Shown here in pieces: positions 32,503 through 64,000 of a DNA stretch of 64,000 bases. How positions within the stretch are numbered: the stretch's first letter is position 1; every line of letters begins with the position of its first letter. Source of the DNA: Mizuhopecten yessoensis (Eukaryota); assembly GCF_002113885.1 (NCBI RefSeq), contig NW_018405338.1:577888-641887 (forward strand), written 5' to 3'. The position numbers were made by a program, and so were the translations under genes. The notes under the pieces are model-generated. The model saw only the letters and a list, made by a program, of their open reading frames with translations, ran no database searches and was not told the DNA's origin.

Positions 32503-32532
32503 TGGTCTAACGGCAGTAATGCACCGATCGCC

Positions 32533-32553
32533 ATGGCCGCGGAAAGTATTCAG
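32533..32553 (+). CDS. Candidate alternative first coding exon, MAAESIQ, phase-0 donor
   Basis: Optimal Kozak GCCATGG, donor CAG|GTAAGA at 32554, in a locally CpG-rich unique segment (~32150-32600). Confidence 0.6.
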
Positions 32554-36853: not shown

Positions 36854-36943
36854 TTAACTCATTCACCCCTGAAGACACATTTGAACCCTCCAATTTAAAG
36901 GTTGGAAAAGTTCATTATAAAATTTCAGGGGTGAATGAGTTAA
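36854..36943 (+). mobile_element. Micro-MITE family A, complete
   Basis: Perfect 16-bp TIR CTCATTCACCCCTGAA / TTCAGGGGTGAATGAG with TTAA on both sides. Confidence 0.92.
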
Positions 36944-40665: not shown

Positions 40666-40711
40666 AGGATCATCATACTAATGCCAAAAACTGCAACTTT
40701 GCATTGGAAAC

Positions 40712-41649: not shown

Positions 41650-41769
41650 CGATATATAACTGTAGCTTTGATAAATCATTTCTGAAAAGAAAACCAAGCT
41701 GCACCTAGCAGGACTTTGATGATGAAAATAAAGACGAAATAAAAACAAAATATTATCAACAGCAGTGTT

Positions 41770-41966
41770 CGGAGTGTAAATATTTAGTGAGCCTAGATCG
41801 GGATTAAAACCCTGAACTTCAAATTGTTATACTATCGCTCTAACAGACTGAGCAACCTGATCAACGAAAGTGTCCTAGACCAACTATGCCACAGTTATAG
41901 CCAAAACAAAGTTAAGGGGAGGCTACTCTACATACGAAAAAATTGCAGTGAGACAGGGATCGTTAA
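41770..41966 (-). mobile_element. Reverse copy of the 13608 repeat family
   Basis: CCAAAACAAAGTTAAGGGGAGGCTACT at ~41901; reverse A/B-box segment 41790-41860; end GACAGGGATCG|TTAA. Confidence 0.7.
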
Positions 41967-42359
41967 ATGATGTGGCGAATGCTTTTGTTGTGCATTGTTG
42001 TTTATGATGTAGTTATTTTCCCAGTTTTCTAAAATTGCTTCAATATTTCCTAATAGAAAAAGTGCAGGACTCTGGTGAAATTGGCTAGAAAGATCACAGA
42101 TTCATAATGGAAAAGCTATATGTTAAAGTTCAAAAGTATAAAGTTTTCACGTTCTTATGAAACAACTGTTGGAACAAAATTGTGATTGGTAACCTTTCTT
42201 GTCTCGTATCTTCCAACTTGTATTTCGGTAACAGCACAAGAAATACTAAACAAAAAATACAGGCCCTTTGTGCCTCTTGTATAAGTGTTTTACAACATCT
42301 CAACACTAACCACTTGTGCACAACTGTGACTTCAGTTTTATCTTAGTTTTAACATAGCC

Positions 42360-42685
42360 GCAGGTAGTGCAGGCCCCATGGACTGTTTGTTATTAAATCC
42401 ACAGGTAATACAGGCCCCATGAGACTGTTTGTTATTAAATCCACAGGTAATGCAGGTCCCATGGGACTGTTTGCTATTACAATCACAGGTAATGCAGGTC
42501 CCATGGGACTGTTTGCTATTACAATCGCAGGTAATACAAGCCCCATGGGACTGTTTGCTATTACAATCACAGGTAATACAAGGCCCATGGGACTGTTTGC
42601 TATTACAATCACAGGTAATACAGGCCCCATGGGACTGTTTGTTATAACAATCACAGGTAATACAGGCCCCATGGGACTGTTTGCA
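42360..42685. repeat. 42-bp minisatellite, ~8 copies
   Basis: Unit CAGGTAATACAGGCCCCATGGGACTGTTTGCTATTACAATCA. Confidence 0.95.
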
Positions 42686-44607
42686 TGACATTTATGCAAC
42701 ATGTCAGTAACAATGTACACATGTACTCTTATGGAGCGATGACACATTCTTTTATGCGAACTCTGGTGTTCTTGCATGTACAGCATTGTTGACCTTTAAC
42801 CTTCTAAGACTGTCGGCTGAACACTGTCATACAGGATTATCTCTGGACGGGATTAGCTCCGACTTTCTGCGACTTTTATCTACAGATGGCATCCTCAGTA
42901 CGGGGGATTAGGTAGAAAACCATCTTAGATAAAATCGTTTTTGCATTCCAAGGAGCCGAAACAAAAATCTTTGCTACATTCCAACAGAATTCTGCCTAAT
43001 TTCTATGACGTACCAGATGTTTGATGATTCTGCCGGCATAACCTCTAATTTCCGTATCTTGTCCCTGTGATGTCATGTAACAGTATCCCAAACCAAGGTC
43101 TTTCTTGATACCATTTTTGCATTGTAATGTAATAAAGCACATCTCTCTGTCTTTCTATCCAATATCAGAATATCAGCCAGAACTGTTACTCCGAAGTATA
43201 ATTTCATTAATGGCGGTGACATTGCTGATCTAGAGGAAGTGATTCAAAATTGTTTTTAAAATTTTTACCGATTTGACAAAGATGAAAAGAAAAATAAAAT
43301 TGTCTGAATAAAATTTTGCTTTTAAGTTTTTCCTGCTTTAGCTGATAGATTGAACAATGATATCTTAGATTAAAAGCAATAATCTTGTTTTTAGCTCCAT
43401 GGAGATTTTGGAGATTTTGTTGTTTTGATTTCCTGGTAATATATGAGCCCATAGCAAATAGGAGATATGTAGTATTATGTAAGAGCTTGAAAGAGGCGAG
43501 TTCTAGGAAGTGACTTAGAAATTGTATGCATTATTTCATTCATATTCAACTATCACAATGACTTTGGCTGTTTATGGTATATATATATATATATACGATT
43601 TCCATTATTATAAAGTTTTTAATGAGATTCTTCAAATGTAAGCAGTCAATTTCCTATTATTGAAATTCAAATAATTATCAATTCTAGTGATTCCAATTAT
43701 AAATCCCATATTTAGATTTCTATTCACGAAGATAGAATATTTTTTCTGGTATTACGCAGATTTGAAAGGATAAGTCGTGGGTTGATGTGCAAGGGAATTT
43801 ATTTGCAATGACTGGAATTTGAATAATTATGATCTTCAGGTTTTGTTGAAGTATTCCATGTTACTTTCTGAGTCATGGAATGTGACTAATTTGAGGAAAG
43901 TGTTTCTAGGACAATATCAGATTTATTTCATGGTCATTGGTTCAGAAATCGGTCAGTCATGGCCGTTATCGCTTTGGTCTTCATTGTTCAAAACAGACCC
44001 GGACAATTAGCCATTAATCGCTGCTGGCTAGTCTCCTTTTCTCCGATTGGTTGTGTATCCTGTTCATTAAACATTCGAGATTGATGTCGTTGATTTCATT
44101 GTCCTATTCTACTGATCTAATTAATGGGAGAACTAATGGAATCTAATTACGTTAATCAGTTCCATCATACAATGGAAATGTTGTATTACATCTGTGGTGT
44201 AGAAGACGGTATTTAAAACACAATGTCGAAATCTTGATCAAACGAAATGGAATGTTAGCTAGAGTTCAGTCATGCATGAATACCGTAAGTTACATGTTGA
44301 GAGCCCTGGGCTACGCTCTAAGTTCAAAACGGGGTAAAATTCAGTCCAGTGTCACTAATCATGGTCTCAAATATGATAATATATGTGTAGAAGAATAATC
44401 AAAGCGTACAGTTTAGGCTTATAGATATAGATACCATATAATAGTATAAATTTTACTTTGTAATCAATTAAAAACATGATTGGTGTAAACTGTAATCACT
44501 TGAGAACCTGCAGATTAGTGTAATGATAGCAAAGAATAATCTAGGTTGATAATTAATGTTTCATGTTCTCTGTTCATCTAGATCTGGCACTGGCTTTTAC
44601 TGTATAT

Positions 44608-44803
44608 AACAAACACCTGTCTATAATGGACCCTTCCATATCTGGTCTAGGTATATTTTCTGTCTATAAAAACACCTGTCTATAATGGACCCTTCCATAT
44701 CTGGTCTAGATATATTTTCTGTCTATAAAAACACCTGTCAATAATGGACCCTTCCATATCCGGTCTAGGTATATTTTCTGTCTATAAAAACACCTGTCTA
44801 TAA
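44608..44803. repeat. 59-bp tandem repeat, ~3.3 copies
   Basis: Unit AAACACCTGTCTATAATGGACCCTTCCATATCTGGTCTAGGTATATTTTCTGTCTATAA. Confidence 0.92.
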
Positions 44804-45670
44804 TTGTTAATTCAGAACCTTTTTGTTTGTTTATATATAACAGCTGTGGTATATGTCATATGACACAACAATTTTGTCAATATATTTCAATTGCACCCAC
44901 AGGTTTGGCAGATTTTCACTTGACACAAACTCTTGCGTCATCACTTGTTTTCGTTTTTTTATATCACCTTTTTAATACCCTAAAGATCTGTGAAACACTT
45001 TCTGCAGCCTGTTACAGAGAACTGCCGGAGTGGGAGCGTTTCAGTCTGCAGTTTAAATTATACGTTGTCAATGAAACGGGTCAGAGTTTTTTCTGTGGTC
45101 TGTGTTTTTACCATCATCCTCAGATATGCCTCTGACAGATGGTTCAAATGTGTCAGGGGCATTAGATCTTCACAGGGCAGTGACTGCCAAATCTTTCCTG
45201 TTTCATTCTCCGCAGATGACGACCTTCTCAAAACCGATGTTTTTCAGCGCTTTATGATTTGTATACGCTCATTAGATATGGTAGACTGCTTTTCAAAACA
45301 GATCAGTTGTGCAAGGTTATGAAGCTTATATACATGTATATATAAAAGGATACAGATGCAAAAAAGATGCATGCTTGCATACAAGACGATCATGTGGATT
45401 TCCAAAGAACTGGCACACAGCCTTTGCTGTGCACTCTACAAAACCCAGATTGCAGCGAATATCTACATGACAGATCTAGACGCGTAACAATTTTTAAGGC
45501 TATATACTAGCTTCTTGAGTATGACATGCTCCTCCTTCACAAAAGAGTTTCAAAGTAAGATACTCATTAAATATCTTTTAAGAATGTGAACTTGTGCAAT
45601 TTGCTAAGGACATATTTGAAAGGTTCTGAAGAAAACGTCCTTGATAAAAGAGGTAATCCCACATGAATCA

Positions 45671-46172
45671 AAGATTTGAAGGTACCTTATAGCCTTAAGA
45701 ATTATACCAAGATTTGAAGGTACCATATAGCCTTAAGAATTATACCAAGATTTGAAGGTACCATATAGCCTTAAGAATTATACCAAGATTTGAAGGTACC
45801 ATATAGCCTTAAGAATTATACCAAGATTTGAAGGTACCATATAGCCTTAAGAATTATACCAAGATTTGAAGGTACCATATAGCCTTAAGAATTATACCAA
45901 GATTTGAAGGTACCATATAGCCTTAAGAATTATACCAAGATTTGAAGGTACCATATAGCCTTAAGAATTATACCAAGATTTGAAGGTACCATATAGCCTT
46001 AAGAATTATACCAAGATTTGAAGGTACCATATAGCCTTAAGAATTATACCAAGATTTGAAGGTACCATATAGCCTTAAGAATTATACCAAGATTTGAAGG
46101 TACCATATAGCCTTAAGAATTATACCAAGATTTGAAGGTACCATATAGCCTTAAGAATTATACCAAGATTTG
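45671..46172. repeat. 38-bp minisatellite, 13 near-identical copies
   Basis: Unit AAGATTTGAAGGTACCATATAGCCTTAAGAATTATACC; I see only one substitution, in the first copy. Confidence 0.97.
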
Positions 46173-47799
46173 TCTTTCATATGCCTTGGTGCTGTTTGTA
46201 TTGGAAAAAGTATCATTTATGGCAAATATTTTGAGTATCTTCCAAAGTGTTTTCTGATATATTAATATTTTTGGTATTTTTTTCTCCCCCGCCTTTGGAA
46301 GAAAACGAGAGATATTAATTTCAACTAGAAATGTTTTAAAATGTCATATACCACAGTAATAAAATCCTGTCTTGAGAAGTAATTGTCTTCTTTGAAAGAT
46401 TATTTTTATGACAATATCCGTGAGGTTGAGAAGAAAGCAGGATGGACATGTTGTGAGTGACCACTTACGTTGAAAGACCACTTTTCCATAAAAGGAAAGA
46501 AGGGTCTCTCAAGACAGAGTCTACCATACCTCAGAACCTAATCTGAATTTCTTGTCATAAAGTTAATTTTTAACTCAAGTCCGAAAACTCAAAATCTTGC
46601 ACATACGGAATAACATTTTTGAAAAGCTCCAGAATTAAAACGACAAAGCCATTGTACAAATAAGAAATGTTATCTAATATAGATGACCACAGTTCAGCAA
46701 CTTTTAAACTTAAAGCTTTCATTTTTTTTCTAACAAAAGTCAACTTTAGATTATGGCATACAAGTACAGATGTACTGGTAATATTGTAATCCTCGTATTT
46801 TTTGATATCTTTAATTTAGATGAAAAACTAATGTTCATTAAACATAACACTAATTGAATATCTGATTCGGGGCAAGGGTGTCAGTTTCAGCTTTCGACTT
46901 CAAACAACTTGATCTTGTATTTTCGGGTGAATCATATTATTTTTCAAATAGGCCCCTCCCATTTTACCATAATCAGCCCAGAGCAATGCAAGAACGAAGA
47001 AATAGTGTGTCTCCTGGGGGCCATATATCTCTGGCTATGAAACCATGTCAAAATTGACACACACACACGAAAAAAAAAGTCAGATTTTTTTGTTTGAAAC
47101 TGATAATTTTGAACACTCCACATTTTGTGTGGCAGATGAGCGATTGGTATTAATTGCTGTGGTTAAGTGTTTAACGGCCGCACAGGGATATGGTAATTTA
47201 AGTCGGACTGATAACGGGCGTCTAATTACTGCTGTTCTTCATAACTCTGCTCATAACATGGAACACGACTTACGTTTCCATTGTGATGTCACAACATTTT
47301 AACTGATCGTATAAACAATCAATGTCTAAGTATTGTCTTTGATAATTTTTACAATGGTTAACATTTTTTTTTTGAAAGTTTTGTGTGTTTGGAAATTAAA
47401 AAAGCATTTAAATTTGCTACAGTTCTTTTCGATTTGAAAAACAAAAGATAGCTTTCATGTGACAGTTGTTGAGTTGCATTGAAGTTTTTGTATATTGATA
47501 TGTAGGGTAGTATTGTGTGTACTGAAAAAAAGCAAATGTCAATTTTAATTTTTCAATGGTATGTCAATTTCAAAATTGATGTTTTAATTGTGTGACTCTG
47601 TACTTGAAACATTTGTTGGATTACCATTGAATTAGAGAGAATTGAAAAGTTTTGCCACTCGTATCAGAAAATATTGAAATATTGAAACCTGTCTAACCTC
47701 ATCTTTGAGTATTCAGAAAACCTGTCTAATATAGAGCCTTAGTCCTATTTGTAATGAAAACTACCAAACAAGACCTGTGTAATCTGACCTTGTGTCAAA

Positions 47800-48795
47800 A
47801 CTGACCAATTTGTTGTGTCCCACAGTGTCGGATTAGTCAGGATACTATGACAATATGTTGTGTTCTGCAGGGTTTCAGATTAGACAGGTTAATCTGAAAA
47901 TGTTTTGTCCCACAGGGTGTCTGATAAGAAAGGTTAATATGACCATATGTTTTGTCCCACAGGGTGTCAGATTAGACAGGATAATATGACAATATGTTGT
48001 GTTCTGCAGGGTGTCAGATTAGACTTATGGCAATCTTTTGTCCCACAGGGTGTCAGATTAGACAGGATAATATGATAATATGCTGTGTTCTGCAGGGTGT
48101 CAGATAAGACAGGTTAATCTGACAATGTTTTGTCCTGCAGGGTGTCAGATTAGACAGGTTGATCTGACAATGTTTTGTCCCTCAGGGTGTCAGATTAGAC
48201 AGGTTAATCTGACAATGTTTTGTCCCACAGGGTGTCAGATTAGACAGGATAATATGACAATATGTTGTGTTCTGCAGGGTGTCAGATTAGACAGGTTAAT
48301 ATGGCAATGTTTTGTCCCACAGGGTGTCAGATTAGACAGGATAATATGACAATATGCTGTGTTCTGCAGGGTGTGGGATAAGACAGGTTAATCTGACAAT
48401 GTTTTGTCCTGCAGGGTGTCAGATTAGACAGGTTGATCTGACAATGTTTTGTCCCTCAGGGTGTCAGATTAGACAGGTTAATCTGACAATGTTTTGTCCC
48501 ACAGGGTGTCAGATTAGACAGGATAATATGACAATATGTTGTGTTCTGCAGGGTGTCAGATTAGACAGGTTAATATGGCAATGTTTTGTCCCACAGGGTG
48601 TCAGATTAGACAGGATAATATGACAATATGCTGTGTTCTGCAGGGTGTGGGATAAGACAGGTTAATCTGACAATGTTTTGTCCTGCAGGGTGTCAGATTA
48701 GACAGGTTGATCTGACAATGTTTTGTCCCTCAGGGTGTCAGATTAGACAGGTTAATTTGACAATGTGTTGTCCCACAAGGTGTCAGATTAGAGAG
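47800..48795. repeat. 45/47-bp minisatellite with a 274-bp higher-order repeat
   Basis: Unit CAGGGTGTCAGATTAGACAGGTTAATCTGACAATGTTTTGTCCCA; the variant order recurs at 48080, 48354 and 48628. Confidence 0.95.
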
Positions 48796-50199
48796 ATATA
48801 AGCAAACCTGACCATTTTGTTATGTACCAAAAATAAACACATTGACCAGCAATAAGCCCATGCCTGGTGATAGGCCCAGTCTCTTGTAAACAGATGTTAT
48901 AAATGAGGTTCGTCCTGGATTGAAAATCTTTTTGCATGAATGGTTTTCCAATTGAGGAATTTTAGCCCAGGGATTGGTATAACTCCCTTACTAAGGAACC
49001 GACCTCCTGTTATCTCATAAGAAATAATAACAACTAAGGACTAGACCCTACATTTGTCACAGCTAACATCTGTTAGTCTAATTAAACAAATTACACCTAC
49101 AAACAATGATGAGGTAATGTTGACATCCCGAGGACTATAGGGGTCATTATCTGCTCCGTATTGATCATTAACGTGATTCATCCAATATTGATATTGTCTG
49201 CACACGTATACAAGATCCCGAATGATTCAGATCAATCTGTTCCCTTCTGGCTAAACATACATGCAGGGTCAATATTAAATCGTTCTAAAATTCCAAATTG
49301 ATCATTGACTATAGTGACATCACTAATGAATCCACTTAGCAACTGTGACACGTTCCCTAGCAACAGACGATGAAGCCTCTTTAAGCCTCTTTGTGGTAAA
49401 CCGGACAATTTGTGAAAGTCTAATTTTGATTTGATAGCTTGGGAGATAATAATTATCAGGAGGTACTTGTAAAATTATTGATTTATTGATAAATGTCTTG
49501 GGTGAGGTATATTTGTGATTGGAACCTGTGGGGAAGAATGCTGGACACATACATACATACATATATATACATATAGCCAGTGTCCATTTTGTGGTGGCTG
49601 TTTAGATGTGACCATATTACACTGTATGGGTGGTATGTTTTAAGAATTGTAAATTGGAGTAAACTTCAGCCCCACACTTGCAATTACGCTCTCATAATAC
49701 AATATGGCTGATGATGAAAGGGTGGTCGGAGCAATATAAACAAAGTAAGATTTTGGCAGACACGATTTAGACCTGGAGATTCAGACCATGAAGAGCTCAC
49801 GTACAGCTGGAAATATTAACCCAAGAATGACAGAGGAAAAAATGACCAGGAAATTGTAAAAAGATAATTTGGTGGAAATTTCACTCGAGATTTTGTGTAA
49901 TAAAATCACATAAAAACCTTTTTTGTTGCTTCTCCAACAGTGAAGCCTTGCTAATTTGGATAAAAAAATGTTTTGGACCACAGAGTTTGTTTCTGTTTTT
50001 AAACTGAATTTGGGCAGAAATCCCATATTTTCTTTTCTGTGAAAGACATATTGTTTACTTAGATCATACATGGCGGGAATTTTGTTGGAAGTTGGACCGA
50101 CAACCTCACTTCCTCATTAAATGCTTTTCGTGGTTTTGGAACAATTGGAACATGCGTGGCACTTTGTTGATTTTAATACTGTAATTGTACCGGCATCAT

Positions 50200-50360
50200 T
50201 ATATTCCCTTCAGTGGCTTCATTCATGAATTTCGGCCAATCAGCTGGAGTGAAGGGGTACGGAGCCTGTCGTCTGCTTCGGAGGGAAGTTTGAGCCAGGC
50301 TAGTGCTGTATGGTATATATATACACAGCTGGTATTACTCACGGTTTGAATCAGCGTATG
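50200..50360 (+). promoter_or_regulatory. Candidate promoter for the 50993 exon
   Basis: NF-Y-type GGCCAATCAG (CCAAT 50236-50240), TATA-like TATATATATA at ~50314, locally GC-richer. Confidence 0.45.
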
Positions 50361-50992
50361 AACTCATCATCTGTATCGCAATCTTGTGAAATACTTATGC
50401 ACTACACACACGAACTTTCACTCCAATTTGACGGAATTTTGAAAGTGGTTGCCTCTGGAACAATTCTCTGATTTCATGTCAGCAAAAAATTGTGTACTTA
50501 TTCTGTGATTTTGGAAAAGATTTTCAAGATTTTTGACAATATGGTTTGTTAGAAAGATGTGCTAGTTTCCTGTATGTGTATGTATTTTGTGGTATACCTG
50601 TTATTGTGGGTGGGTACAGCTAGCTAACAGACCTGTTGTTGCCGTGGGCTACAAGTGTCATTATGGACTTCTCATATCATCATAAATGTTCGACCATTGG
50701 AAGTATGCAGCTGTGATTCGAATTTGTATTTAATTATTTCATCTTTGACAAAGTGGATTTTTGAATATCTTCAAAAAGATAGGATTCTTTACAATTAAGG
50801 ATTACAATTGTTTGAATTATGGGAAATTGTTTCTGGAAGTGTGTCTGTGATCTTTATCAATATGTTTAAAGATTTTCAATATTGTGAATCAATCATGGGA
50901 AATGACCATTACTTTGCAACATAATTTCATCATCAGTACGATTTGTGTGGATATTTTACAATACTGATCACATCCAAACAATAACATTCATC

Positions 50993-51055
50993 ATGGTTCT
51001 GGAATATATCGTCACAGTGTGGGATTCAGCCGAACCCAAGACATTTAATGCTGAG
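50993..51055 (+). CDS. Candidate alternative first coding exon, MVLEYIVTVWDSAEPKTFNAE, phase-0 donor
   Basis: Kozak ATCATGG, upstream in-frame TGA at 50903, consensus donor GAG|GTAAGT at 51056. Confidence 0.6.
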
Positions 51056-51579
51056 GTAAGTATTGGAACAACCTAATTTAGAAACTCCTGATCAAATACA
51101 ATCTTCAGTCCTCAAAATTCAAATGTATGCAATGTAATGTATAATGGTGTCAATTTCATGTGGAAAGAAACTAACTACTAACCTTGAAGTTGATGAACTG
51201 ATATTTAAATCAATATTCAATTTCATGTAGAAATTGACATCTGTTGATGAAATTAAAGGGATTTTTTTTTTTCTTTTTTTTTTTTAATTTAATTTGTTTG
51301 TTTGAGTTGTAACTTTCACAGAAAGATGTCTTTAACATTCAATTTGAACCTATGTTTTCAGATTCTATCAGAATATAAAATAATTGCTGTTCTTAATTTT
51401 GAGAGAATTTTAATGTCAAATATGTATTGATGCCAGGATTCTGGTAACACTTGAACAGCTTGATTATAAAGATCTTAGTCTGTTGGTGGTCAAGTTGTAA
51501 ATGTCACTGTCGGCTAATGGTAAAAATATGTATGTATCCAAAAATCTTGTCTGATTACCTGTATTTCTTCTTTGATTAA

Positions 51580-52030
51580 AAGTCATATAACCTTCCATAT
51601 ACCTCATATTTTGGGGGTTTGGGATGGCGGAGTATTTGGAGGTCCAGAAATTTATTACTACCATAAGGTATGGTATACCTAGTCAGGTTGTCTATGCTCC
51701 TGTGATGAGCTCAAAGGTCATATAATCTTCCAATGTCAATTGACCTCATATTTTGGGGGTTTGGGATGGCGGAGGATTTGGAGGTCTAGAAATTTATTAC
51801 TTCCATAAGGTATAAGGTATACCTAGTCAGGTTGTATACACACTCTTGTGATGAGTTCAAAGGTCACACTACATTCTGATCTTCAAAAGACATTTCCTGT
51901 TGGAGGTTTGGGATGGCTGAAGGTGAGAAATATATTACTACCATACCGTATGGTATACAAAGTCAGTTTGTATTTACCTACGAAATGAGGTCAAAAGTCA
52001 TGCTGCCCTCCGACCTAGAATGACCTTATA
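51580..52030. repeat. ~142-bp tandem repeat x3, probably HINE-internal
   Basis: ACCTCATATTTTGGGGGTTTGGGATGGCGG at 51601 and 51743, third copy degenerate; AAAGGTCA motifs. Confidence 0.8.
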
Positions 52031-52439
52031 GTTTCCAGATTTCTCTGGGATGTGTAAGACATATACAACATTAAGGCCTTGTATTATACGACTTTGTCTT
52101 TTGAAAATGTAAAAGAATAAAATTAAGTCGTATGTAAAATTTAAACTTAACATATATTCTTATCACTTAAAATTAAGCTTAAAACTCAGCTTATCTAGAA
52201 ATATTTTTAGGATCCCTGGAGTGTTTATTTCAGTAGATCTTAACTAAGATATATCAAGCACCAAATTGATCTTGACAATCTTAATTTGACTTAAAGGATG
52301 ACAGCCTCTCATCCTTGTGCTTTAGAAATTTATGCTGTTGAGATGGTTTGACTGAAGTCAAAATACATTCATTTTTATCTCAATTTTATGTATAAAATGT
52401 ACATGTATTTGGATGTATGTGATAAAAAGTATTGTTGAG

Positions 52440-53425
52440 CACCCAAAAACACATTTCCTCCACCCCAAGGCGCAAATTCCATATCTCACACCCCGAAGTA
52501 AGCCTTATCCCTTTTCATGCCCCACCTCTACATTTCTCACTCACCCAACCAAAAATCCCTATTCCTCCCTCCCTAGTTAATGTGTTTTCCTCACTTTCCC
52601 CACCCAACCTCTGCCCTGCAAACATGCACCCCTCCCCATCATATACTTATTTTCCCTTCTCACACCCTGCCCCTACATTTCCACCTGCCACCAAAAAAAC
52701 ACCTCACATTATTCTCTCTGCAGCAAATGTGTTCTCCCCCATCCCTAACCCATGGCCACCCACCCCCACTCCGCCTCCCCATCACAAATTTCTGTCTCTA
52801 CCCCATTGTCTCCCCCAGTAAGTATACTTCTCTCGGTTTCATTCTCACCTTACCAGTACCAATGATACACCTGTCCTTAATTAGTAAGACCATACATCTG
52901 CCAGATCTCAAACGAAGCAGGACTAACAAGTTACACCTGTGTCTATACATCCTCCTTTGTACCCGGCCTAACCTACCTATAGTATGGTATCCCCTATCAC
53001 ACATCCAGACATATACTCCCTACTGTAGTTTTGATATCCTATTTGCTCCTTCCTGCCAACTCATAGTCACACTGTTTGCTTATCCTTCCCTTCATATCCC
53101 AATATTGTTTGTCTGATCCCTACCCCCTATCCCCCCCCCTCTAGACACACACCTCCCAAATTCCCAGTCATTCATATCTCCTAACAGTTCCCCCTCCCCC
53201 AATTCTAAACTCCTTTGATTTTGATATTGTGTTATACATTGTTAAACTTGTTACCCCATCCCTCCAACCTCTTACCCTTTCCCATCCCCAACCTAACAAT
53301 TACCTTCCGATCCCCCACTCCTCAACCCAACATCTACCCTAAAACAACTTGTACACAGTCCCTCCATTTCTACTCCAACCCCAAAACCGCCTTGGCCCCC
53401 CCCCCAACCCCCACCTCAAACTTGT
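52440..53425. repeat. C-rich low-complexity tract
   Basis: Dense CCC runs and few G on the + strand; no clear period. Confidence 0.7.
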
Positions 53426-54309
53426 GATCTTATATAAATGAACGACTTTTGAAACTTCTGACACCATCCTTCAATTTATGCTTATCAATATGCATATTTT
53501 AATAAAAATTTGTGTCATTTCTGTGAAATCTTGGGATATGCTAATAAATACAGAAGATCTTGTTAATATTTATAAATTGATATTATACAATTGTTTGCAA
53601 CATAAAGCTATCAAATTCAGAATGAAATTTACTTTTAAAGTTACAATTATATAATCTGGTCAAAATGGATGGCTTAATTATTCTATAATTGCACAAAAAC
53701 GACCTTAATGTGCCAGCTGTGAAATTTTGACCCAATCTTGTTTAAAACAAAGTCTATTAGAGGGTAATGTTGTTTAAAAAACAATTATACCCTGTCTAAT
53801 GAGGTTAGAGAAAGTCCCAAGTTGTTTTAACTCCATCTTATCGGTCAATCATATGTCAGATGTTGGAGCTTAAAGAAAACAGTTTGGCAGAATTGGCAGT
53901 GAAATGCAATTAAAGTTGTCCTTGAAAGCTACTTTGACCTTGTATATTTCAGTAAGTGTATCTTTCATTACCATTTCGCAGACGGACTGCCAGTTACTAG
54001 GTCATCTACGATTCTCTAACTAGATGCAAACGAGTTATACCAATACCTGCGGACAGAAGTAATTAACAGATATAATCTAATTACGGAGCAGTACAAACAA
54101 TGCTATAGGCCATTGTTATCTATTATCCCCTCCCAGACTCCCCCATCTTCATCAGACGTAATGGCGACATACCTTTGGCCCTAAATCGACCACAGATCAC
54201 CTTACCGAAATAATATGCATATTTTTCCAGGTGACTATCGGCCTATAAATGTTTGTTATAATTACGGAGATGTTTACCTTGTAGTACTATACCTGTCTAT
54301 TGTGTAGGT

Positions 54310-54742
54310 TTTAGGAGGGGGACGGGTAAAGGATGGCTGGGGAAGGGGAGGGAGGGAGAGGGGGACAGGTAAAGAATGGGTGGAGTAGGGCAGGGAGGGA
54401 GAGGGAGAGGGGGACAGGTTAAGAATGGGCGGAGTAGGGCAGGAACGGAGAGGGAGAGGGGGACAGGTAAAGGATGGCTGGGAAAGGGGAGGGAGGGAGA
54501 GGGGGACAGGTAAATAATGGGCAGAGTAGGGCAGGGAGGGAGAAGGAGAGGGGGACAGGTTAAGAATGGGCGGAGTAGGGCAGGGAGGGAGAGGGGAAGG
54601 TAAATAATGGGTGAAGTAGGGCAGGGAGGGAGAGGGGGAGGGGGACAGGTAAAGAATGGGTGGAGTAGGGCAGGGAGGGAGAGGGGGACAGGTAAAGAAT
54701 GGGTGGAGTAGGGCAGGGAGGGAGAGGGAGAGGGGGACAGGT
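54310..54742. repeat. Purine/G-rich ~40-50-bp minisatellite running into the assembly gap
   Basis: Unit approx. GGGGGACAGGTAAAGAATGGGTGGAGTAGGGCAGGGAGGGAGA. Confidence 0.9.
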
Positions 54743-55519
54743 NNNNNNNNNNNNNNNNNNNNNNNNNNNNNNNNNNNNNNNNNNNNNNNNNNNNNNNNNN
54801 NNNNNNNNNNNNNNNNNNNNNNNNNNNNNNNNNNNNNNNNNNNNNNNNNNNNNNNNNNNNNNNNNNNNNNNNNNNNNNNNNNNNNNNNNNNNNNNNNNNN
54901 NNNNNNNNNNNNNNNNNNNNNNNNNNNNNNNNNNNNNNNNNNNNNNNNNNNNNNNNNNNNNNNNNNNNNNNNNNNNNNNNNNNNNNNNNNNNNNNNNNNN
55001 NNNNNNNNNNNNNNNNNNNNNNNNNNNNNNNNNNNNNNNNNNNNNNNNNNNNNNNNNNNNNNNNNNNNNNNNNNNNNNNNNNNNNNNNNNNNNNNNNNNN
55101 NNNNNNNNNNNNNNNNNNNNNNNNNNNNNNNNNNNNNNNNNNNNNNNNNNNNNNNNNNNNNNNNNNNNNNNNNNNNNNNNNNNNNNNNNNNNNNNNNNNN
55201 NNNNNNNNNNNNNNNNNNNNNNNNNNNNNNNNNNNNNNNNNNNNNNNNNNNNNNNNNNNNNNNNNNNNNNNNNNNNNNNNNNNNNNNNNNNNNNNNNNNN
55301 NNNNNNNNNNNNNNNNNNNNNNNNNNNNNNNNNNNNNNNNNNNNNNNNNNNNNNNNNNNNNNNNNNNNNNNNNNNNNNNNNNNNNNNNNNNNNNNNNNNN
55401 NNNNNNNNNNNNNNNNNNNNNNNNNNNNNNNNNNNNNNNNNNNNNNNNNNNNNNNNNNNNNNNNNNNNNNNNNNNNNNNNNNNNNNNNNNNNNNNNNNNN
55501 NNNNNNNNNNNNNNNNNNN
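54743..55519. other. Assembly gap (777 N)
   Basis: Run of n. Confidence 1.
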
Positions 55520-57089
55520 GTGGGGGGGGTGGGGTGGAGATACGTGGAGTAGCAGTGTTTGAGTGAAGAGACATAGGTAGTGTTTTCAACTTAGGGTAGA
55601 ACACAGACATTCACCGCAAAAACACTAGGTCTATGGAAATCCTTATGGTTATAGAACAAGTTGTCTAGAGTGTTTATGATTCATTGAGAAGCGTATATGA
55701 TATTGAGAGAAGTGTTTTGTAAAATCAGTTTTCTGTGTTCGTTATCATGTAAAACCTTATTTTACTGCCACTGTTTGTCCAGAGAAATGTTGGCATTATA
55801 AAGGGGTTTTGGGATAAATTGCAGGAACTATATAAGTAATTCTTCAGATAACAAGAAATAGGGAGATTAAAATATGTTGGCAGTAAACCAGGTGGCAGAT
55901 GAAACATTATATTGAGGTTTTAGTTTTTACTGGGTTTTTTTTCTTCTTAATTTATCAAGCAATTAACATTAAATTCTGATGTCATTCCCCCCTCTTCATT
56001 CAACCACCCATTTCTCACACCCTAAATCCCCACCAGCTCAGTTACTCCTCCATATGTGCTTTTTGGCTATAAACAATAGTCTGCCAGATTGTACATGTGT
56101 TTTAATCCACCCAGGCCTGGGTCCAGGATCATCCTTTGGGGCATTCAATTCTGAACAAGTATGACACACATTTTGGTATGGCAGCATCTGTCCTTATAGC
56201 TACAAGCTTTACCTATATTTTAGTTCAGACTTGATCTGTGATATGAAATGTCTTCATGTGAAATTTTGCAATAAAGCAGACGAAGAGAAGGAGACCTTGA
56301 TCACAGATTTACTAAAGGACAATTCAATTTCTGATGCTTATTTCTGGAGTAAGTTTTATGATTGATCTCTGAGTTGTGTTACTGACCTTCCCTGAGGTGG
56401 TCATGAACACTTATTAACCTGAATATTGTGGTATTAACCAATGTAAAGGTAGTTTGACATGTACTGACAATGCTTCATCACTCAGACCATCATGTAGTGG
56501 ATATAGGGCCGTTCCTTTACTTCCTCATTCAGGTTACTGTTGTTCTCAACACTGGGACAGCACAAATCATGTTCTGATCGTAGGAAATGGCCATGGAGGT
56601 TAATCCAATTTGGGAATCTCTGGACAGGGAGGACATTTGGCACCGAACATGTTTGGCTGTATGACCTCATGTTATCATCCTTATCACAGGGATGGGAGGT
56701 AAAAACATGTGTAGACTATAAAAATGACCTGGGATAACACCTAAAGTCGGTAAAAATGCTGGGTTTTACCACCAGGGAACAGAGTTATAGCTGTGCCTGG
56801 CTTTGCTAGTGTGATAGTGTAAGGTAGGTGGGGAGGAGTTGGAAGGGGGATGAGTAGCTTCGCTGTTGGTTGTCTTGTTTTGGGGGAGGAGGGGGTTGAA
56901 GTAATTGTTGGTTGGGGTACGTAGGGGTTATTGGGNAAGAAAATTATCAGGGTGGGGGGGGTTCCTGAAGCCCAAAAAACCCGTCTGGATCCGCCACTGG
57001 TCACTGTAGTAATGCACTATGATAATATTTATAAGGGGAGGGAGGGAGGGGGTTGTCTGATGTGTTGTATTCTGTTCAGATCAGAACAT

Positions 57090-57280
57090 GGGTAGACTAG
57101 ACTTGACCACTGGTTGACCACACATAAGGTCAAGTTATATGGTTATGATGGGACATGTTCAGTCTTTCATAAACCTGTAATAGACTTAGATATGACCACT
57201 GGTTGACCACAGCATAATTAACCAGTGTCCAGTCCTATGTAAACATGTGGTAGACTAGATTTGACCACTGGTTGACCATA
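57090..57280. repeat. Degenerate ~80-bp repeat x3
   Basis: TAGACT..A.TTGACCACTGGTTGACCA at ~57093, ~57181 and ~57251. Confidence 0.7.
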
Positions 57281-57581
57281 CATGTCAGGTTCTACGGTCT
57301 GTGTAAACTGTCCATAATAAATTTTGCTGTGTATTGGTCAGAAATCAAATTATGGGTCGGTATGCTTATTTGTCAAAAGGATTTTTAATGTAATATTGAG
57401 GTCACTACAGAGTTTGTTGGGGTGACTGGGGCATTGGTAGTGACATGTTGTGTATGGATTTGTCCTGAATTTGTACAAGAGAGACAATTTTCCCTTAAAA
57501 AAAACCCACAACAAAATCTACCAGCTACTACAGTAAATACTGAAGACATCAGTCTAGTAGTGAGTTTATGTATCACAACCA

Positions 57582-57672
57582 TTAAGTCATTCACCGCCAC
57601 ATATTTAAACTGGACTTACCCAGTCTTTGATTTGGTAAGGTTCAAGTGTGACTGTAGGGGTGAACGGGTTAA
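57582..57672. mobile_element. TTAA-flanked micro-MITE family C
   Basis: TTAA|GTCATTCACC...GGTGAACGGG|TTAA, 91 bp, internal sequence differs from families A and B. Confidence 0.7.
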
Positions 57673-57923
57673 GCATTTATGTGTGACGTTTCTGGGACTA
57701 GTATGATGCATACCCTGTCACCTTCATCAGACAAATGACCAGTGAATCGTATGTACACAAAGGTGTAAAATATATAAAAGTTGGCAATGTATAATCAAAG
57801 TCAATGCAGATATATGCTACCAGCATATGTACTCTTACTTGTTATACATGTACAAAATGATGAATCATACCCACAATATGATTGTGCTACGTTTTGTTTA
57901 ATACCTGTACATAGAGGTGCAAG

Positions 57924-58188
57924 AGTCTATGAGCCCCCTCATCTCGGTTCAGAAATGTTCATACTTACCAACCTGAAGAAAATGTTTAGAGATAGACATC
58001 AGTCTCCTGCCAGTGTACTCACTCATGAAAGGTTGCAAAAGAAATCAATCGATCAATAAGTCTATGAGCCCCCTCATCTCGGTTCAGAAATGTTCTCATG
58101 CTTACCATCCTGAAGAAAATGTTTAGAAATAGACATCAGTCTCCTGCTAGTGTACTCATTCATGAAAGGTTGTAAAAGAAATAAATCT
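57924..58188. repeat. 135-bp tandem duplication
   Basis: AGTCTATGAGCCCCCTCATCTCGGTTCAGAAATGTTC at 57924 and 58059. Confidence 0.92.
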
Positions 58189-60029
58189 GTCGTCATCGAT
58201 ACATTTGTGGTCGAACCAGGAGGATTGGGCAGCTCAGTGTTGGTGGTGATGCGTTTTTTCTCCACTCTGCTTTATGATGTAATATGTAAGCTGGCTATGG
58301 TTCTGCCCTCAATTGTGGTTATTACGTACACACAGGTGTAGGGTACAAAACTGTGCTGCTAGGTAGTTCCTGCCCCAGAATGTGGTTGGTTTGTAACGAT
58401 CATGTAGATTTTGAATGGTAGTTTTATCAGAAGCCCTGTGAGGAGAGTAAATCAATTTTTGATAAACTTTAAAATAAAAATTGTGCCCTAGCTATTTTGT
58501 GGATGGGTTGGTCATGTAATGTTTGCCATATCTGTCCTGTCCTATCCCTTCCCTTAAATCATGTCTTGTCCCGGCCCGTTCAGTGTCATTATTCTAAAAA
58601 CTTCATTTCTAAAATAATTTTGATTAAATTTATTTCAAGTACATGTAGTACAATTCATGAAATGAGTTCATTTTTTGGGGGTTTCAAGGTCAAGCCTGAA
58701 CAATTCTCAAACTTTTGCTTGTAACAACGCATCTGTGACCTCCTACCAACATCCCAAAGAACTCTTTACTTGAAATACTACACAACCTGGGCCCATATTC
58801 ATGAAACCATTCTCTTGCTCAAGTAATTGATTGGTCCTGCATTAACCCACTGGCTTTCCATGCATACAGCTCGGGTCTGTTTCCAAGTACAAGTTAGGAA
58901 TTGTCAGAGATATGATTTTTTGCCTTTCATAGATTCTCTTGGGCGTTCTACCAGAGTTGTCCCTGTGATAGTACTCGAGAAAATTGAGGTAACCTTCAAA
59001 TATACAATAAAACTTATTCTGCCACGATTTCTCCAGTGACAAGTTTGGCTCTATAAAGAGGTGTTGTAGTTTGACAAATGAACAATATCCTGGACTTGTC
59101 ACAGAAAAAAGTAAAATGGGACCATGGAATAGGTTGGCGGTAATTATAACTGAGGTGGCAATAGAATTGAGGGGAATTACTGAAATTAAGTGTTGCTCTC
59201 ACGTTAAAGGTTAGACTTTGTATAGACTTGCTAAAGTCATTTTAACCTACTAAATCATATTATCAGTTCATTTTTACGACGTCAGAAGGACCTTCCACAA
59301 GCAAAGACAAATCAAAACAATGGTTTCATTTTCACACGCGATATTTTTATCCAATAATAGTCACCGTTACAGCCTTCAATTAAATTAGGACTTGTAACGA
59401 TTCTATAATGATGTTCAGATAATCTGGGTGTGATGAAGTATTCGTCAGACTTACGATGTTGTAACTAGATGACTGTCTAATATGTCTGCAGGCTGGAGTG
59501 GCTTCCAACACCTCAGAGAGAAATGATCTAATTCTACGCCCACTTTGTCGGTAATTTTGATGGAACTTTTAGGGATGATACATATTGGACCACGACGTTG
59601 TTGAATATACTTGTATGAGGATTGTATCATAGCCAATCTAAAGGACTTTTTGTCATTTATCTGTATTTGAACTGTGTGTCACCACAATGTTTATTTATAG
59701 TACCGCTGTGCCACCTTTTCATAGCTGTGAATGATTAATTTCTACTTGGAACTTTGCTGAAGGAAAGTTAGGAAAGTTGTCTTCCTCTGGTCCCAAAATA
59801 TAAATTTGTAATAAAAACAACACTGGGTACTTAACAACAGAGTGATTTGACAATCTTTACTTGCTTCTACAGTTTCGACCTACTTTAGGACAAAGTCACT
59901 ATATAGGGTTAGGTGGTTTATTCAAATTTTGTATTTTCTGGTCCTGGCTAACGGCGATGTAACATTACGATCCCTATAACGGATGTATGAGGTGTCTGAC
60001 GATGAATATATTTCAGCGAGCATATCACA

Positions 60030-60062
60030 ATGTTAATGGAAATTAGAAATTCGGGAAGGGGT
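60030..60062 (+). CDS. Weak candidate alternative first exon, MLMEIRNSGRG, phase-0 donor
   Basis: ACAATGT start, upstream in-frame TGA at 60003, donor GGT|GTAAGT at 60063 (no G at -1). Confidence 0.25.
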
Positions 60063-61794
60063 GTAAGTAAGTAGGATATGGTGTTCCGTTATAGATGAAT
60101 ATATAATAAAGTTCCATCCCATAATGGTCGTGAGGCCTTGAATGATAATTGAGGTCCATCCTACAGCTATACGCTAGAAGCCTCAGCATGTATTATGTAG
60201 GTAGGCGGCTGGTAATTTGTTTATTTACAGATCAAAGTTTTAATCTCGAAGTTTGGTTTTGTCACGGAAACTGTCAGTTGGGGTCACTGCCAATATGATG
60301 GGTTAACATGTTTAAATTACACCAAAATGAGAATATATGGAAAATACATGTCAATCGGTGGGATGGGTAATGGGTTACCTCCCTTTTCAAGTGGTATCCA
60401 TGTAAGCATCTTTTATGCTTTAAATAAAGATGGTTTCTCGAAACCATGCAATCACTTCAAAAACAAGACAGTGAACCACCAGCCAGAATAGTCTATAGAT
60501 GGTATGTGGACCAGCAAACAAAATGATGTCAAAAATTGGTCGCAAAATTACAGATACAGAATGTTTATTAAGATAATAGGGAAAAAAAATGTAATTGACA
60601 TCCCGCTAGCATACGAGGATGGGTGTGCATTGTGGTACCCAGACAGGTGGCCTGATACAGGGAGTATATAATCTCTAACGAACAAAGTGTTCATCTATAC
60701 CGCCGACCTACAGTCTTCATTTATATAGACACACTAGAGAATTTGGCAAACTTACAGACGAGCAGCACACACATATTCCATCATTATTACATGTAGGTAG
60801 GTGTGCATGTCTTCGGTCTGGCAAGGAAAGCGCTGTTATATAGCATTCAAATACCACATGTTGTAACAGAGGATCGACCTGACTCACGGAGAGGAGACGA
60901 TTGCAGGTTCGGTTGTTGGTGTGTATTTAGTTCCGAGAGTATGGTTCTCATTAGTGACTGCAATTATCGTAATTCTAAATGGGATTCAACTGAAAAGTGT
61001 CTGGTTTTTGCGGTGTTGCGAAGAATGGGGGCAGTTAGCTCTCTTGCATACATATTCTTCCTAAAATAAACTGTGTGGTCGCGACTTCTTGATCGGTCTT
61101 GTGTAAATGTCAACAAACAAAAGTATTCATATATATATAAGTGTAGATTGCCAATTTATATTTGTATGACATTTGACCTGCGTTAAGATAGCATAAACAT
61201 ACTTTATTACCCATACAAAACCTACAGTTCTGCTCATTGTAAAACCATATGGAAACAGTTTTTGATCTAATAAGGATGCGGAGTCTGGGTAAATGACAAG
61301 TCTGGACCCTCTTTTTAGAAACATTTATCATCCAGACACCATATCTTGTATATTGACCATTTTACTGCCACCAACAAGAAGATATGAAGGGCATTTTATC
61401 CCTCTCCGTGGTTTTATTCCCCACAAATAAAGCACTGTATTGTTCTGAAAATTGCATTGGTTACTATCTAATGTCCATGGCAGTCTTACATTCATTCAAT
61501 TACTCGTTAACTGAACTGACGCAGTGCCATTTTTTGGGGTAGAAGTTCTCTGAATAAAAAAAGCAACCAGAAAATTTCTGTAAATTATGAAATCTGGTAC
61601 AGAAAAGGTATAATCTTTTCGATGAGTAATATACGGGTTCCAGGGAATTTTGAAGTTGGGATAATGATGAAATATGGTGGGGATTCCTAGAATCATCATT
61701 TTCATGCTCAGGATGAAAAATGCCTTGGTTATAGTAATATAGTTTTATAAGTGGACAGTTCACATTTTAATTCTTCAGATTACTTTCACATAGA

Positions 61795-62003
61795 GAAAAA
61801 CCTCCATATAAAGCCCCTTGTTTCATTTGCCAATATGTTCAGTTTTTAAAAAAAAATCCATATAAAGCCCCTTGTTTCATTTGCAGAAATGTTCAGTAAT
61901 CAGAAACCCCCATATAAAGCCCCTCGTTTCATTTGCTGAACTGTTCAGTAATCAGAAACCTCCATATAAAAGCCCCTCGTTTCATTTGCCAATCTGTTCA
62001 GTA
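61795..62003. repeat. ~53-bp tandem repeat x4
   Basis: CCATATAAAGCCCCT.GTTTCATTTGC....TGTTCAGT recurs four times. Confidence 0.88.
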
Positions 62004-62334
62004 AAACAATTGCAATGTCTGCCTTCTTGTTTTTGTAAACAGTTCATTTTCATGTTCCTTCCATACATTGCCTTAATTACCCTTTTATAATGCCAACTAA
62101 TTGTTTGGCAAATGGTGGAACTATAATAAGGTTTAACAGTATCTAAGGTATCATTCCTGATTTGTTTTCCACACATTTCTGTCATTAGTACTATATTCAC
62201 CTATCTAAACCTCTAACTGGTATTGCTGTGCACTTCTAGAACATATGCACCCCTGACAGGTTTTAGATACTTCAATATTTATCCTTGGTGGACAGATAGC
62301 GCACTCATTTACACCAAGATGACCTGTCTGCACC

Positions 62335-62472
62335 ATGTGGTTTTCTCGGGGTACTCTGTACCCTGTGTCCTCCCACATCAAGACCCTTGCACGCTACCAT
62401 CCAGGCCAGTAGGAGTGTTTGATATAAGTTGATAGAACTTGTTTCATAATCGTCGTAAAATAAAATAAAGTT
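62335..62472 (+). mobile_element. V-domain SINE (second family) fragment
   Basis: GTGGTTTTCTCGGGGTACTCT...TCCTCCCACA core; tail shared with 30795. Confidence 0.7.
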
Positions 62473-62549
62473 TATATTCAATACTTATCCTACTCATTTG
62501 ACAAACAACAGAATGTGATATTTAGAAAAATGCCAAATTGTTTTTGCAT

Positions 62550-62668
62550 GTTGATAATATGATTGATGTTGTTTTTTCTGTATTTTGTAGGTAAGTGGTA
62601 TTTTGTTTGATGACAGAGAGACAAAAGAATGTTAAGGGGAGACAGTGGGACATACAGGTTGTAAGTAT
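62550..62668 (+). other. Candidate recursive splice site (AG 62589-62590 | GTAAGT 62591) with 70-nt RS-exon 62591-62660
   Basis: GTTGTTTTTTCTGTATTTTGTAG abutting GTAAGT; no other AG for over 60 nt upstream; second donor GTAAGTAT at 62661. Confidence 0.7.
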
Positions 62669-63028
62669 TCAGTATATGTGATAAAACATGCCTGTTGACA
62701 TCATTCAGCTGAGAGAAGTCTTTCCCAGTGTTGTTTAGTATTTCACATCAAGGTTGACATATTTTAAGGGAATGGTGCTGTCGGTCCAATTTCCAGTGTA
62801 AAATTCTTCTGAAACGTTTGACCAGACTTTACTAAAAGGAAAATATGAAGGTGATGAAACGGGAAAATTGACAAAGTTAACTCTGTATAAGCTTTTCACG
62901 TGTGTAGTAACAGTACAGCTATATGTGATGTCCTAGATTGTCCCTCAGATGGTGTCCTCACAATCATTAATAATACATGATCATTTAGAAATTGGTGTGA
63001 TTTTAAATTATTTACAAAGGATTGATAT

Positions 63029-63103
63029 TTAATTCATTCACCCCTGAAATTTTATAATAAACTATTCCAACCTTTGAATTGGAAGAGTTCAAATGTGGCT
63101 TCA
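63029..63103 (-). mobile_element. Micro-MITE family A, reverse orientation, truncated
   Basis: TTAATTCATTCACCCCTGAAATTTTATAATAAACTATTCCAACCTTTGAATTGGAAGAGTTCAAATGTG is the reverse complement of the family A sequence. Confidence 0.85.
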
Positions 63104-64000
63104 ATTTGACAGCTTCCTTCTCTTTGAGCTCAGTTGGGTTCTTAAGTAAAATCGTATAAAAGGAAGATTTTTGAAAAAGACGTCATTGTATATGGATGGA
63201 GCATTGTGTTGGCTTGTGTTAGTATCTTTATAGTTATTTATAGATCAATGGACCTTGATGTAAACTTTTGGAAAGTGGCGAATTGTCAGAGGTCATGTTT
63301 GAAAAAATGGTGACATGCCTGGTAATTTGATAAAGTGTTCAGACTTTATCAGTGTGGTGTCTGTCGAAGGGTACACAGGGGAAATTACATTTCACAAACG
63401 CTTCCTTTTACAAAGAGAATTGTATTTTTTTTCAGCAACAAATATTTTCACTTCACAATCAGAAACAAGACCGGTATGAATGCTAAAAAGCATGATTGTA
63501 GAAACTATCTGGAAATTCTACTTTTCATCTTCATGTGTCTTGATGAGTAAGATTTGGTTAAAAATTTGCTATTTCAAGAAACATTAACACCCCTTGTGTG
63601 CCGCCACCATCTGGGCCAACAAGTATAATTTATACATGCTGATGTAATATGTTTCATAATTGTTGTAAAATAAATAAAGTTTAATTTGATATAAATGAAG
63701 ATAAAATCGTAGCTGATTATCTTTTCCTGTTCCCTTGAGTGACATTTAGTGTTATTTGATTTGTGTAATTTGTCAAGCAATTTTATGTTGATATTAATAA
63801 TTTGAATAAGTGGTTTCTTCAGACAGTTTGTGTTAAACTTTCAAAATACCACCCAGACTTTCGGATGGCAAAGTTTGATAAATCACTTAACTAAATACCA
63901 GTTCACACCTTTGTTTGCCGAAAGGGACCCCCAGTGCGATAAACAATATGGATACAATGTTCCTTGTTAAGTGGAGGGGCACATCTTGACTTTGGGTGGG

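What the first reader, a model, noticed from the sequence alone, without database searches (positions are those of the whole stretch)
62550..62668. Ratchet point 2 whose RS-exon would be a poison exon for all phase-0 first exons
Read in phase 0, the 70-nt exon gives VSGILFDDRETKEC then TAA, and its length is not a multiple of 3. Inclusion would truncate the protein, while re-splicing at the regenerated GTAAGT leaves no trace. The exon body is purine-rich (GACAGAGAGACAAAAGAA), consistent with exon definition.
Basis: partly seen in the sequence, partly recalled or inferred. Interest (0 to 1): 0.7.

Follow-up and report, generated by a model that had tools for sequence, protein, structure and literature searches.

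The report
Recursive splice site, scallop navigator gene
The 260-kb first intron of a scallop neuron-navigator gene carries three evenly spaced stepping-stone splice signals, and assembled transcript data show two distant first exons spliced onto this one, so the intron is likely cut out in steps as in fruit flies; a regulatory 'poison exon' role is not supported.

Summary
The site is real and is used. AG|GTAAGT at 62590|62591 is the last of three strong ratchet-point motifs, about 60 kb apart on the sense strand of the first intron of a scallop neuron navigator gene. Each is followed 41-70 nt later by T|GTAAGTATT. Contigs from 2 of 3 RNA-like runs of one study join first exon F1 (196 kb upstream) to 62591; one of them also joins F4 (51055). 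One contig carries F1 and runs on past the 62661 donor into intron, the expected recursive intermediate. The 70-nt exon would truncate the protein for all four mapped upstream first exons (all phase 0), but 88% of random pseudo-exons would too, no inclusion was seen, and its donor pairs with U1 about 4-6 kcal/mol more weakly than the regenerated one. Best reading: a Drosophila-type ratchet point whose cryptic exon defines the site and is skipped. Re-splicing, sawtooth and conservation are not shown; overhangs are short (22-30 nt). The mechanism is known; my searches found no paper on it in molluscs. The scan noted similar motifs on other DNA (octopus, annelid, urchin), mostly without RNA.

The parts
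62530..62590 (+). Recursive 3' splice site of ratchet point C: AG-free zone, TGAT branch-like motifs, pyrimidine tract, AG at 62589-62590
   Evidence: Sequence; first-exon ends joined at this AG in contigs of X1 and X2
62591..62598 (+). Ratchet donor GTAAGTGG, completed into a full 5' splice site by the last three bases of the incoming exon
   Evidence: Sequence; predicted U1 pairing -11.1 to -13.2 kcal/mol after first exons F1-F4; its use in a second splice is inferred
62591..62660 (+). 70-nt cryptic RS-exon; phase-0 stop TAA at 62633-62635; ATG at 62610 open and in frame with exon 2
   Evidence: no inclusion seen
62661..62669 (+). RS-exon donor TT|GTAAGTATT; the same 9-mer follows all three ratchet points
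   Evidence: predicted U1 pairing -7.3 kcal/mol; the long contigs of X1-X3 run through it unspliced
50993..51055 (+). Coding part of alternative first exon F4 (MVLEYIVTVWDSAEPKTFNAE), phase 0, conserved in oysters, abalone, a whelk and a chiton
   Evidence: its last 30 nt joined to 62591 in run X2
2340..2465 (+). Sister ratchet point B: acceptor AG at 2398-2399, 57-nt cryptic exon 2400-2456 (VSGIF then stop), donor CT|GTAAGTATT at 2457
   Evidence: no RNA laid on it
1..64000 (+). The whole window lies inside the first intron region of the neuron navigator gene. Outside it, in window coordinates: F1 ends -133775, F2 -96314, ratchet point A -56752, F3 -16519, F5 87571, F6 116237; exon 2 starts 126959

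Best explanation
This is a splice acceptor fused to a splice donor deep in the first intron of the scallop neuron navigator gene; upstream first exons are spliced onto it, and the donor so regenerated is then likely used to splice on to exon 2, leaving no trace (recursive splicing). Three such points cut the 261 kb from the most distal first exon F1 into pieces of 77, 59, 60 and 64 kb. The 70-nt exon most likely serves to define the acceptor: its downstream donor pairs with U1 over all eight intronic bases but has a poor exonic side (GTT), so it would help recognition yet lose the competition to the regenerated donor, which inherits a final G from every first exon. Shown: motifs, gene structure, first-step joins. 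Inferred: second step, exon definition, order A then B then C. Truncation on inclusion is a side effect, at most a fail-safe.
For: 3 of 3 strong motifs on the sense strand, evenly spaced, each with the same downstream donor; similarity among the three is confined to the splice motifs. Loose ends at 62589/62590 equal the ends of F1 (X1, X2) and F4 (X2); the two strings tested are each found once in 464 kb and end exactly at a GT donor. X1 record 8 (487 nt) carries the F1 end and continues through 62661 to beyond 63020. The long contigs of X2 and X3 start at 62590 and 62591; control run X6 runs 62424-63020 unbroken. The F1 join carries no base of exons A or B. Protein P0047 joins F1 directly to exon 2; 0 of 163 fetched navigator proteins hold the exon's peptide. 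U1 pairing -11.1 to -13.2 against -7.3 kcal/mol. Same layout and logic as fly kuz and Bx (PMC8605326).
Against: The joins come from assembled contigs of one study whose RNA nature is a guess; overhangs of 22, 24 and 30 nt are under the tool's 31-letter bridging rule; X3 lists no join. Donor and ratchet share 7-8 nt, so template switching would give the same letters. The second step was not observed, and junctions alone do not separate productive from dead-end splicing (PMC6110457 Results makes this caveat). No genome-wide class was shown: TTTTTYNYAG|GTAAGT gave 16 hits against 115 for the reversed control, and only 3 of those 16 have a downstream GTRAG (background 10%). Conservation could not be tested.
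Confidence: 0.82

Rival explanations
1. Regulated poison exon: the 70-nt exon is included under some conditions or after some first exons, and the transcript is destroyed by NMD, tuning navigator levels.
For: Inclusion gives a stop at codon 15 of the exon plus a frameshift for F1-F4. All three RS-exons truncate. The downstream donor is clearly selected (3 of 3). Such a switch is described for human RS-exons (PMC5126111, passage on Sibley 2015).
Against: Three of three truncating is expected by chance (0.88 each, about 0.68 together). No inclusion listed in 3 RNA-like runs. The RS-exon donor is 3.8-5.9 kcal/mol weaker after every first exon tested. The stop lies near the start codon for F1 and F4.
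Confidence: 0.08
2. Dead-end or terminal-exon splicing: first exons splice to a cryptic acceptor and the product is degraded or polyadenylated downstream (AATAAA at 63056, 63669), while productive splicing jumps straight to exon 2.
For: Only the first step is seen, and contigs running past 62661 fit a terminal exon as well; AATAAA sites follow.
Against: Does not explain a perfect donor at +1, the second donor, or three copies at about 60-kb spacing. X1-X3 also cover the intron upstream of the site, as pre-mRNA-rich libraries would.
Confidence: 0.07
3. The joins are library or assembly artefacts (template switching at the shared GGTAAGT) and the motifs are unused.
For: 7-8 nt of microhomology; short overhangs; one study.
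Against: Two different exons, two samples, exact splice boundaries; in 3 of 3 RNA-like runs the long contig starts at 62590/62591 and no listed piece bridges the acceptor, whereas X6 does (193 pieces not shown). Motif statistics are independent of the RNA.
Confidence: 0.03

Closest known systems
Drosophila intronic ratchet points with cryptic RS-exons (kuz RP1/RP2, Bx, Ubx, Ten-m; PMC8605326, PMC6110457)
   Same: Tandem AG|GTAAGT in a very long intron, several evenly spaced sites, a short (~50 nt) out-of-frame cryptic exon with a weaker downstream donor, first-step joins without the exon in mRNA.
   Different: Bivalve mollusc; pieces of 59-77 kb (the two fly kuz sites divide a ~50-kb intron); interleaved with at least six coding alternative first exons; the same T|GTAAGTATT donor at all three sites; second step and conservation not shown here.
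Vertebrate cryptic RS-exons and the 'binary splicing switch' (Sibley 2015, seen only through PMC5126111 and PMC6224609; CADM2)
   Same: The regenerated donor depends on the preceding exon; RS-exons carry premature stops; long neuronal gene with alternative first exons.
   Different: No first exon here is predicted to favour inclusion; no inclusion seen.
Sea urchin and insect RP-site enrichment (PMC2773006, Table 2)
   Same: Sense-strand excess of fused splice motifs in introns over 50 kb of invertebrates.
   Different: That study is motif-only and includes no mollusc; here one gene has RNA joins, but no genome-wide excess was shown.
Poison cassette exons coupled to NMD (as defined in PMC8605326 Introduction)
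   Same: Inclusion would truncate the protein.
   Different: No inclusion, NMD sensitivity or conservation shown; the exon begins with a donor, which marks it for skipping.

Membership tests
Intronic ratchet point with cryptic RS-exon (Drosophila type) | Strong 3' splice site fused to a consensus 5' splice site (AG|GTAAGT) | tested here: met
Intronic ratchet point with cryptic RS-exon (Drosophila type) | Sense strand of a very long intron, dividing it into similar pieces | tested here: met
   3 sense against 0 antisense; pieces of 77/59/60/64 kb
Intronic ratchet point with cryptic RS-exon (Drosophila type) | Upstream exon joined to the site in RNA, with intron still attached | tested here: met
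   F1 in X1 and X2, F4 in X2; X1 record 8 continues past 62661. Contigs of one study, overhangs of 22-30 nt
Intronic ratchet point with cryptic RS-exon (Drosophila type) | Short cryptic exon with a downstream donor weaker than the regenerated donor | tested here: met
   70 nt; -7.3 against -11.1 to -13.2 kcal/mol, predicted with this genome's U1
Intronic ratchet point with cryptic RS-exon (Drosophila type) | Exon absent from mature mRNA | tested here: inconclusive
   P0047 is F1 plus exon 2; 0 of 163 proteins hold the peptide; no loose end listed behind 62660; the four mRNA-type runs had no cover on F4 either
Intronic ratchet point with cryptic RS-exon (Drosophila type) | Sawtooth coverage in nascent RNA | tested here: inconclusive
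   The contig downstream of the site is deeper than each listed non-repeat upstream piece in X1-X3 (8.6/12/12.2 against 2.4-8.0), but contig depth cannot rank parts of a gene
Intronic ratchet point with cryptic RS-exon (Drosophila type) | Re-splicing from the regenerated donor (lariat; donor mutant includes the exon) | not testable with these tools
   Needs lariat sequencing or mutants
Intronic ratchet point with cryptic RS-exon (Drosophila type) | Motif conserved across related species | not testable with these tools
   No related genome held; no look-alike window
Poison exon (AS-NMD) | Inclusion creates a premature stop or frameshift | tested here: met
Poison exon (AS-NMD) | Truncating character beyond what chance gives | tested here: not met
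   88% of random 35-75-nt exons truncate; 74% of 70-mers have a phase-0 stop
Poison exon (AS-NMD) | Exon included at a measurable, regulated level | tested here: inconclusive
   None listed; contigs drop rare forms and NMD would hide them
Poison exon (AS-NMD) | Included form rises on NMD inhibition | not testable with these tools
   Needs a UPF1 or SMG1 experiment

The most novel reading that the evidence does not exclude
The three ratchet points act as a proof-reading chain for a gene with six or more promoters. An exon ending in G regenerates a winning donor; an incoming cryptic exon or an RS-exon included by mistake regenerates a donor (-6.5 kcal/mol) that loses to the next RS-exon donor (-7.3), so errors propagate into truncated, discarded transcripts. 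The uniform T|GTAAGTATT donors would be tuned to sit between these two strengths, and molluscs would use fly-style recursive splicing combined with a vertebrate-style switch.
Probability: 0.15. Interest if true: 0.68.

Novelty: new member of a known kind. Interest (0 to 1): 0.48.

Why it matters
Recursive splicing with cryptic exons is documented in flies and vertebrates. My searches of the held library found no report in molluscs, and the scan's earlier invertebrate candidates mostly lacked RNA. A site with first-step joins in a bivalve suggests the mechanism spans all three main bilaterian branches. One intron with three matched sites and several first exons is a compact test case for whether RS-exon donors are tuned only for exon definition or also for quality control.

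Tried and rejected
Raw reads of X10, X13, X14, X20 on 50400-64000: no cover on F4 and none on unique intron; signal swamped by repeats at 63028-63103 and elsewhere; uninformative on use or inclusion. No RNA holder on record was listed; X1-X4 are 'RNA?' guesses. Pattern search gave 0, but none of the three known sites fits that pattern; discarded; 4 hits against 1 control, one being site A and one a tandem repeat; 16 against 115 control; 3 of 16 with a downstream donor; no class shown; 36 hits against 8 control, recovering all three navigator sites, but most others are tandem repeats; of 30 inspected, only the 3 navigator sites have a tract of at least 15/20 pyrimidines. Pfam CH scan of the genome missed this gene because of short exons. 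Alternative donor CAG|GTTGTA at 62657: predicted U1 pairing -7.2, non-consensus, no RNA support. A shared repeat origin of the three sites was rejected. Purine richness as general support was rejected (sister exons at background). A fly ortholog in the recursive-site tables: 0 hits for sick, FBgn0263873 or CG43720 (identifiers recalled) in 9 supplement files of PMC6110457; the tables may use other identifiers. Sibley 2015 and Joseph 2018 were not held. One search did not force the key term and is uninformative. No earlier notes near this place or on relatives.

Full report
Observation. The window reads ...TTTTTTCTGTATTTTGTAG|GTAAGTGG at 62590|62591 and ...CAGGTT|GTAAGTATT at 62660|62661. The 70 nt between translate in phase 0 as VSGILFDDRETKEC then TAA (62633-62635). 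The acceptor has 15 of 20 pyrimidines and no other AG for 60 nt upstream.

Host gene. The window is G000:C2011:577888-641887. I fetched 200 kb on each side. A long downstream ORF matches neuron navigator 2-like proteins named Mizuhopecten yessoensis at 100% identity, on a contig of the same length. Mapping N-termini of homologs places six coding first exons in front of exon 2 (IYTDWANH..., start of the CH domain, window coordinate 126959): F1 ending -133775, F2 -96314, F3 -16519, F4 51055, F5 87571 and F6 116237; all are phase 0. F1 and F6 match proteins of this species, F2, F4 and F5 match Argopecten isoforms, and F3 rests on weaker matches to oyster and brachiopod N-termini. The whole window is intron apart from F4 and two unconfirmed candidates.

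Three matched sites. In this 260-kb region the strict motif (YAG|GTAAGT, at least 15 of 20 pyrimidines, AG-free tract) occurs 3 times on the sense strand (-56752, 2399, 62590), 0 times on the antisense strand, and 0.05 times on average (maximum 1) in 60 block shuffles. The thresholds were chosen after seeing the sites, so this control is somewhat generous. The pieces from F1 to exon 2 are 77, 59, 60 and 64 kb (the pieces contain 86 to 4950 N). Each site is followed after 41, 57 and 70 nt by T|GTAAGTATT, a 9-mer found 6 times in the region, one being F4's donor; the background chance of GTAAGTAT at that distance is 0.0028. Similarity among the three neighbourhoods is confined to the splice motifs, so they are not repeat copies. 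The finding's site is the third of the gene.

RNA. Four raw-read runs from four studies gave no cover on F4 or on unique intron and say nothing. Logan contigs of X1, X2, X3 (one study, RNA by guess) and X6 (kind unknown, used as control) were laid on 59030-63020. X1 and X2 show loose ends before 62590 that equal the end of F1; X2 shows one before 62589 that equals the end of F4. The two strings tested occur once in 464 kb and end at the GT donors. In X1 a single 487-nt contig holds 22 nt of F1 and continues through the 62661 donor to beyond 63020: an exon joined to the site with intron still attached, carrying nothing of sites A or B. In X2 the joins lie in records not listed and the long contig starts at 62590; in X3 it starts at 62591 with no join listed; X6 runs 62424-63020 unbroken. 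So 2 of 3 RNA-like runs show a join. Limits: overhangs of 22, 24 and 30 nt are below the tool's 31-letter rule; 10 loose-end rows and 193 pieces are hidden; 7-8 nt of microhomology mean template switching would give the same letters. The downstream contig is deeper than every listed non-repeat upstream piece (8.6, 12, 12.2 against 2.4-8.0; repeat pieces at 61797-61832 and 62413-62450 left out), a weak hint of a sawtooth only. No loose end was listed behind 62660.

Mechanism. With the U1 5' end taken from this genome, predicted pairing of the regenerated donor is -11.1 (F1), -11.7 (F2), -13.2 (F3) and -11.8 (F4) kcal/mol against -7.3 for the RS-exon donor. All three RS-exon donors pair over the eight intronic bases and not on the exonic side. 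In flies the stronger donor wins and the cryptic exon is recognised but skipped (PMC8605326, Introduction and first Results). I infer the same here: exon definition across the 70 nt, splicing to AG 62590, then re-splicing from GTAAGT to exon 2. Protein P0047 joins F1 directly to exon 2, and 0 of 163 fetched proteins contain the exon's peptide. The second step is not shown. An incoming exon ending in T, such as an included exon A or B, would regenerate only -6.5 and could flip the choice; this is a small predicted difference and the basis of the novel case.

Poison exon. Inclusion would truncate for F1-F4. That is the default: 88% of random 35-75-nt exons drawn from this intron shift frame or stop, and 74% of 70-mers stop in phase 0. 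The stop would lie 103-106 nt into the CDS for F1 and F4, where NMD is often inefficient (recalled). The exon also has an ATG at 62610 open into exon 2 (21% by chance, weak context). Purine content is 67% (1.9% of random 70-mers), but 49% and 51% in the sister exons. Nothing here shows a regulated poison exon; out-of-frame cryptic exons are typical of fly ratchet points (PMC8605326).

Against a wider claim. Genome-wide patterns showed no class: 16 hits against 115 control, 3 of 16 with a downstream GTRAG against 10% background; 4 against 1; 36 against 8, mostly tandem repeats, and among 30 inspected only the three navigator sites have a strong tract. L045 and L047 look like further candidates. 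These searches are lower bounds and cannot tell sense from antisense. Conservation of the site could not be tested.

Literature seen. PMC8605326: parts 1-2 of 6 and passages. PMC6110457: abstract, Results part 1 of 3, and a search of 9 supplement files. PMC2773006, PMC5126111, PMC6224609: passages. 10.1101/2024.12.11.627982: part 1 of 3, which names flies, mice and humans as species with the phenomenon. Sibley 2015 and Joseph 2018 were not held. Searches: 'recursive splicing' with 'mollusc' 0 papers; with 'mollusk' 2 listings on other subjects, not read; 30 of 39 listed for genomes/species/long introns, none on molluscs by title; 40 of 253 listed for navigator terms, none holding 'recursive splic'. 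Subscription journals are largely missing. The scan's notes list 191 findings with these words in at least 21 genomes; of the 8 shown, most had no RNA.

Verdict. A used ratchet point with a cryptic RS-exon, one of three in the first intron of scallop neuron navigator: a new member of a known kind, of interest for the phylum and for the RNA joins, not for a poison-exon function. Interest 0.48.

Noticed in passing
L039:3248 (window -56752): Ratchet point A with a 41-nt frameshifting cryptic exon and donor TT|GTAAGTATT; no RNA laid on it.
   Followed up: partly
window 24869-24964 and 32533-32553: Two further candidate phase-0 first exons (MGRYT...MSRK|GTAAGG; MAAESIQ|GTAAGA with a good Kozak context); no homolog N-terminus among 55 distinct ones matched them.
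   Followed up: partly
window 50993-51055: First exon F4 peptide is strongly conserved across bivalves, gastropods and a chiton; F1's SVEETI(R/K) end matches mussel, abalone and an annelid, so the many-first-exon layout is old.
   Followed up: partly
window 62610-62660: ATG inside the RS-exon opens MTERQKNVKGRQWDIQV in frame with exon 2; probably chance (21%).
   Followed up: yes
L047 (C1845:297001-297060, minus) and L045 (C1201:452719-452772, plus): Further candidate ratchet points with pyrimidine tracts and 46-nt and 40-nt cryptic exons; host genes not looked up.
   Followed up: no
L068-L074 (C591), L075, L080-L087: Tandem arrays whose units contain GTAAGT, often as CAG|GTAAGT, up to 32 times in 700 bp; they inflate ratchet-motif counts.
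   Followed up: no
window 63028-63103, 62400-62480, 63653-63683: High-copy dispersed repeats that attract thousands of RNA reads from elsewhere.
   Followed up: no
L026:4011-7034: Long low-complexity Thr/Asn/His-rich ORFs (about 1000 codons, minus strand), mucin-like, with an Ig-like stretch nearby; neighbouring gene upstream of navigator.
   Followed up: no
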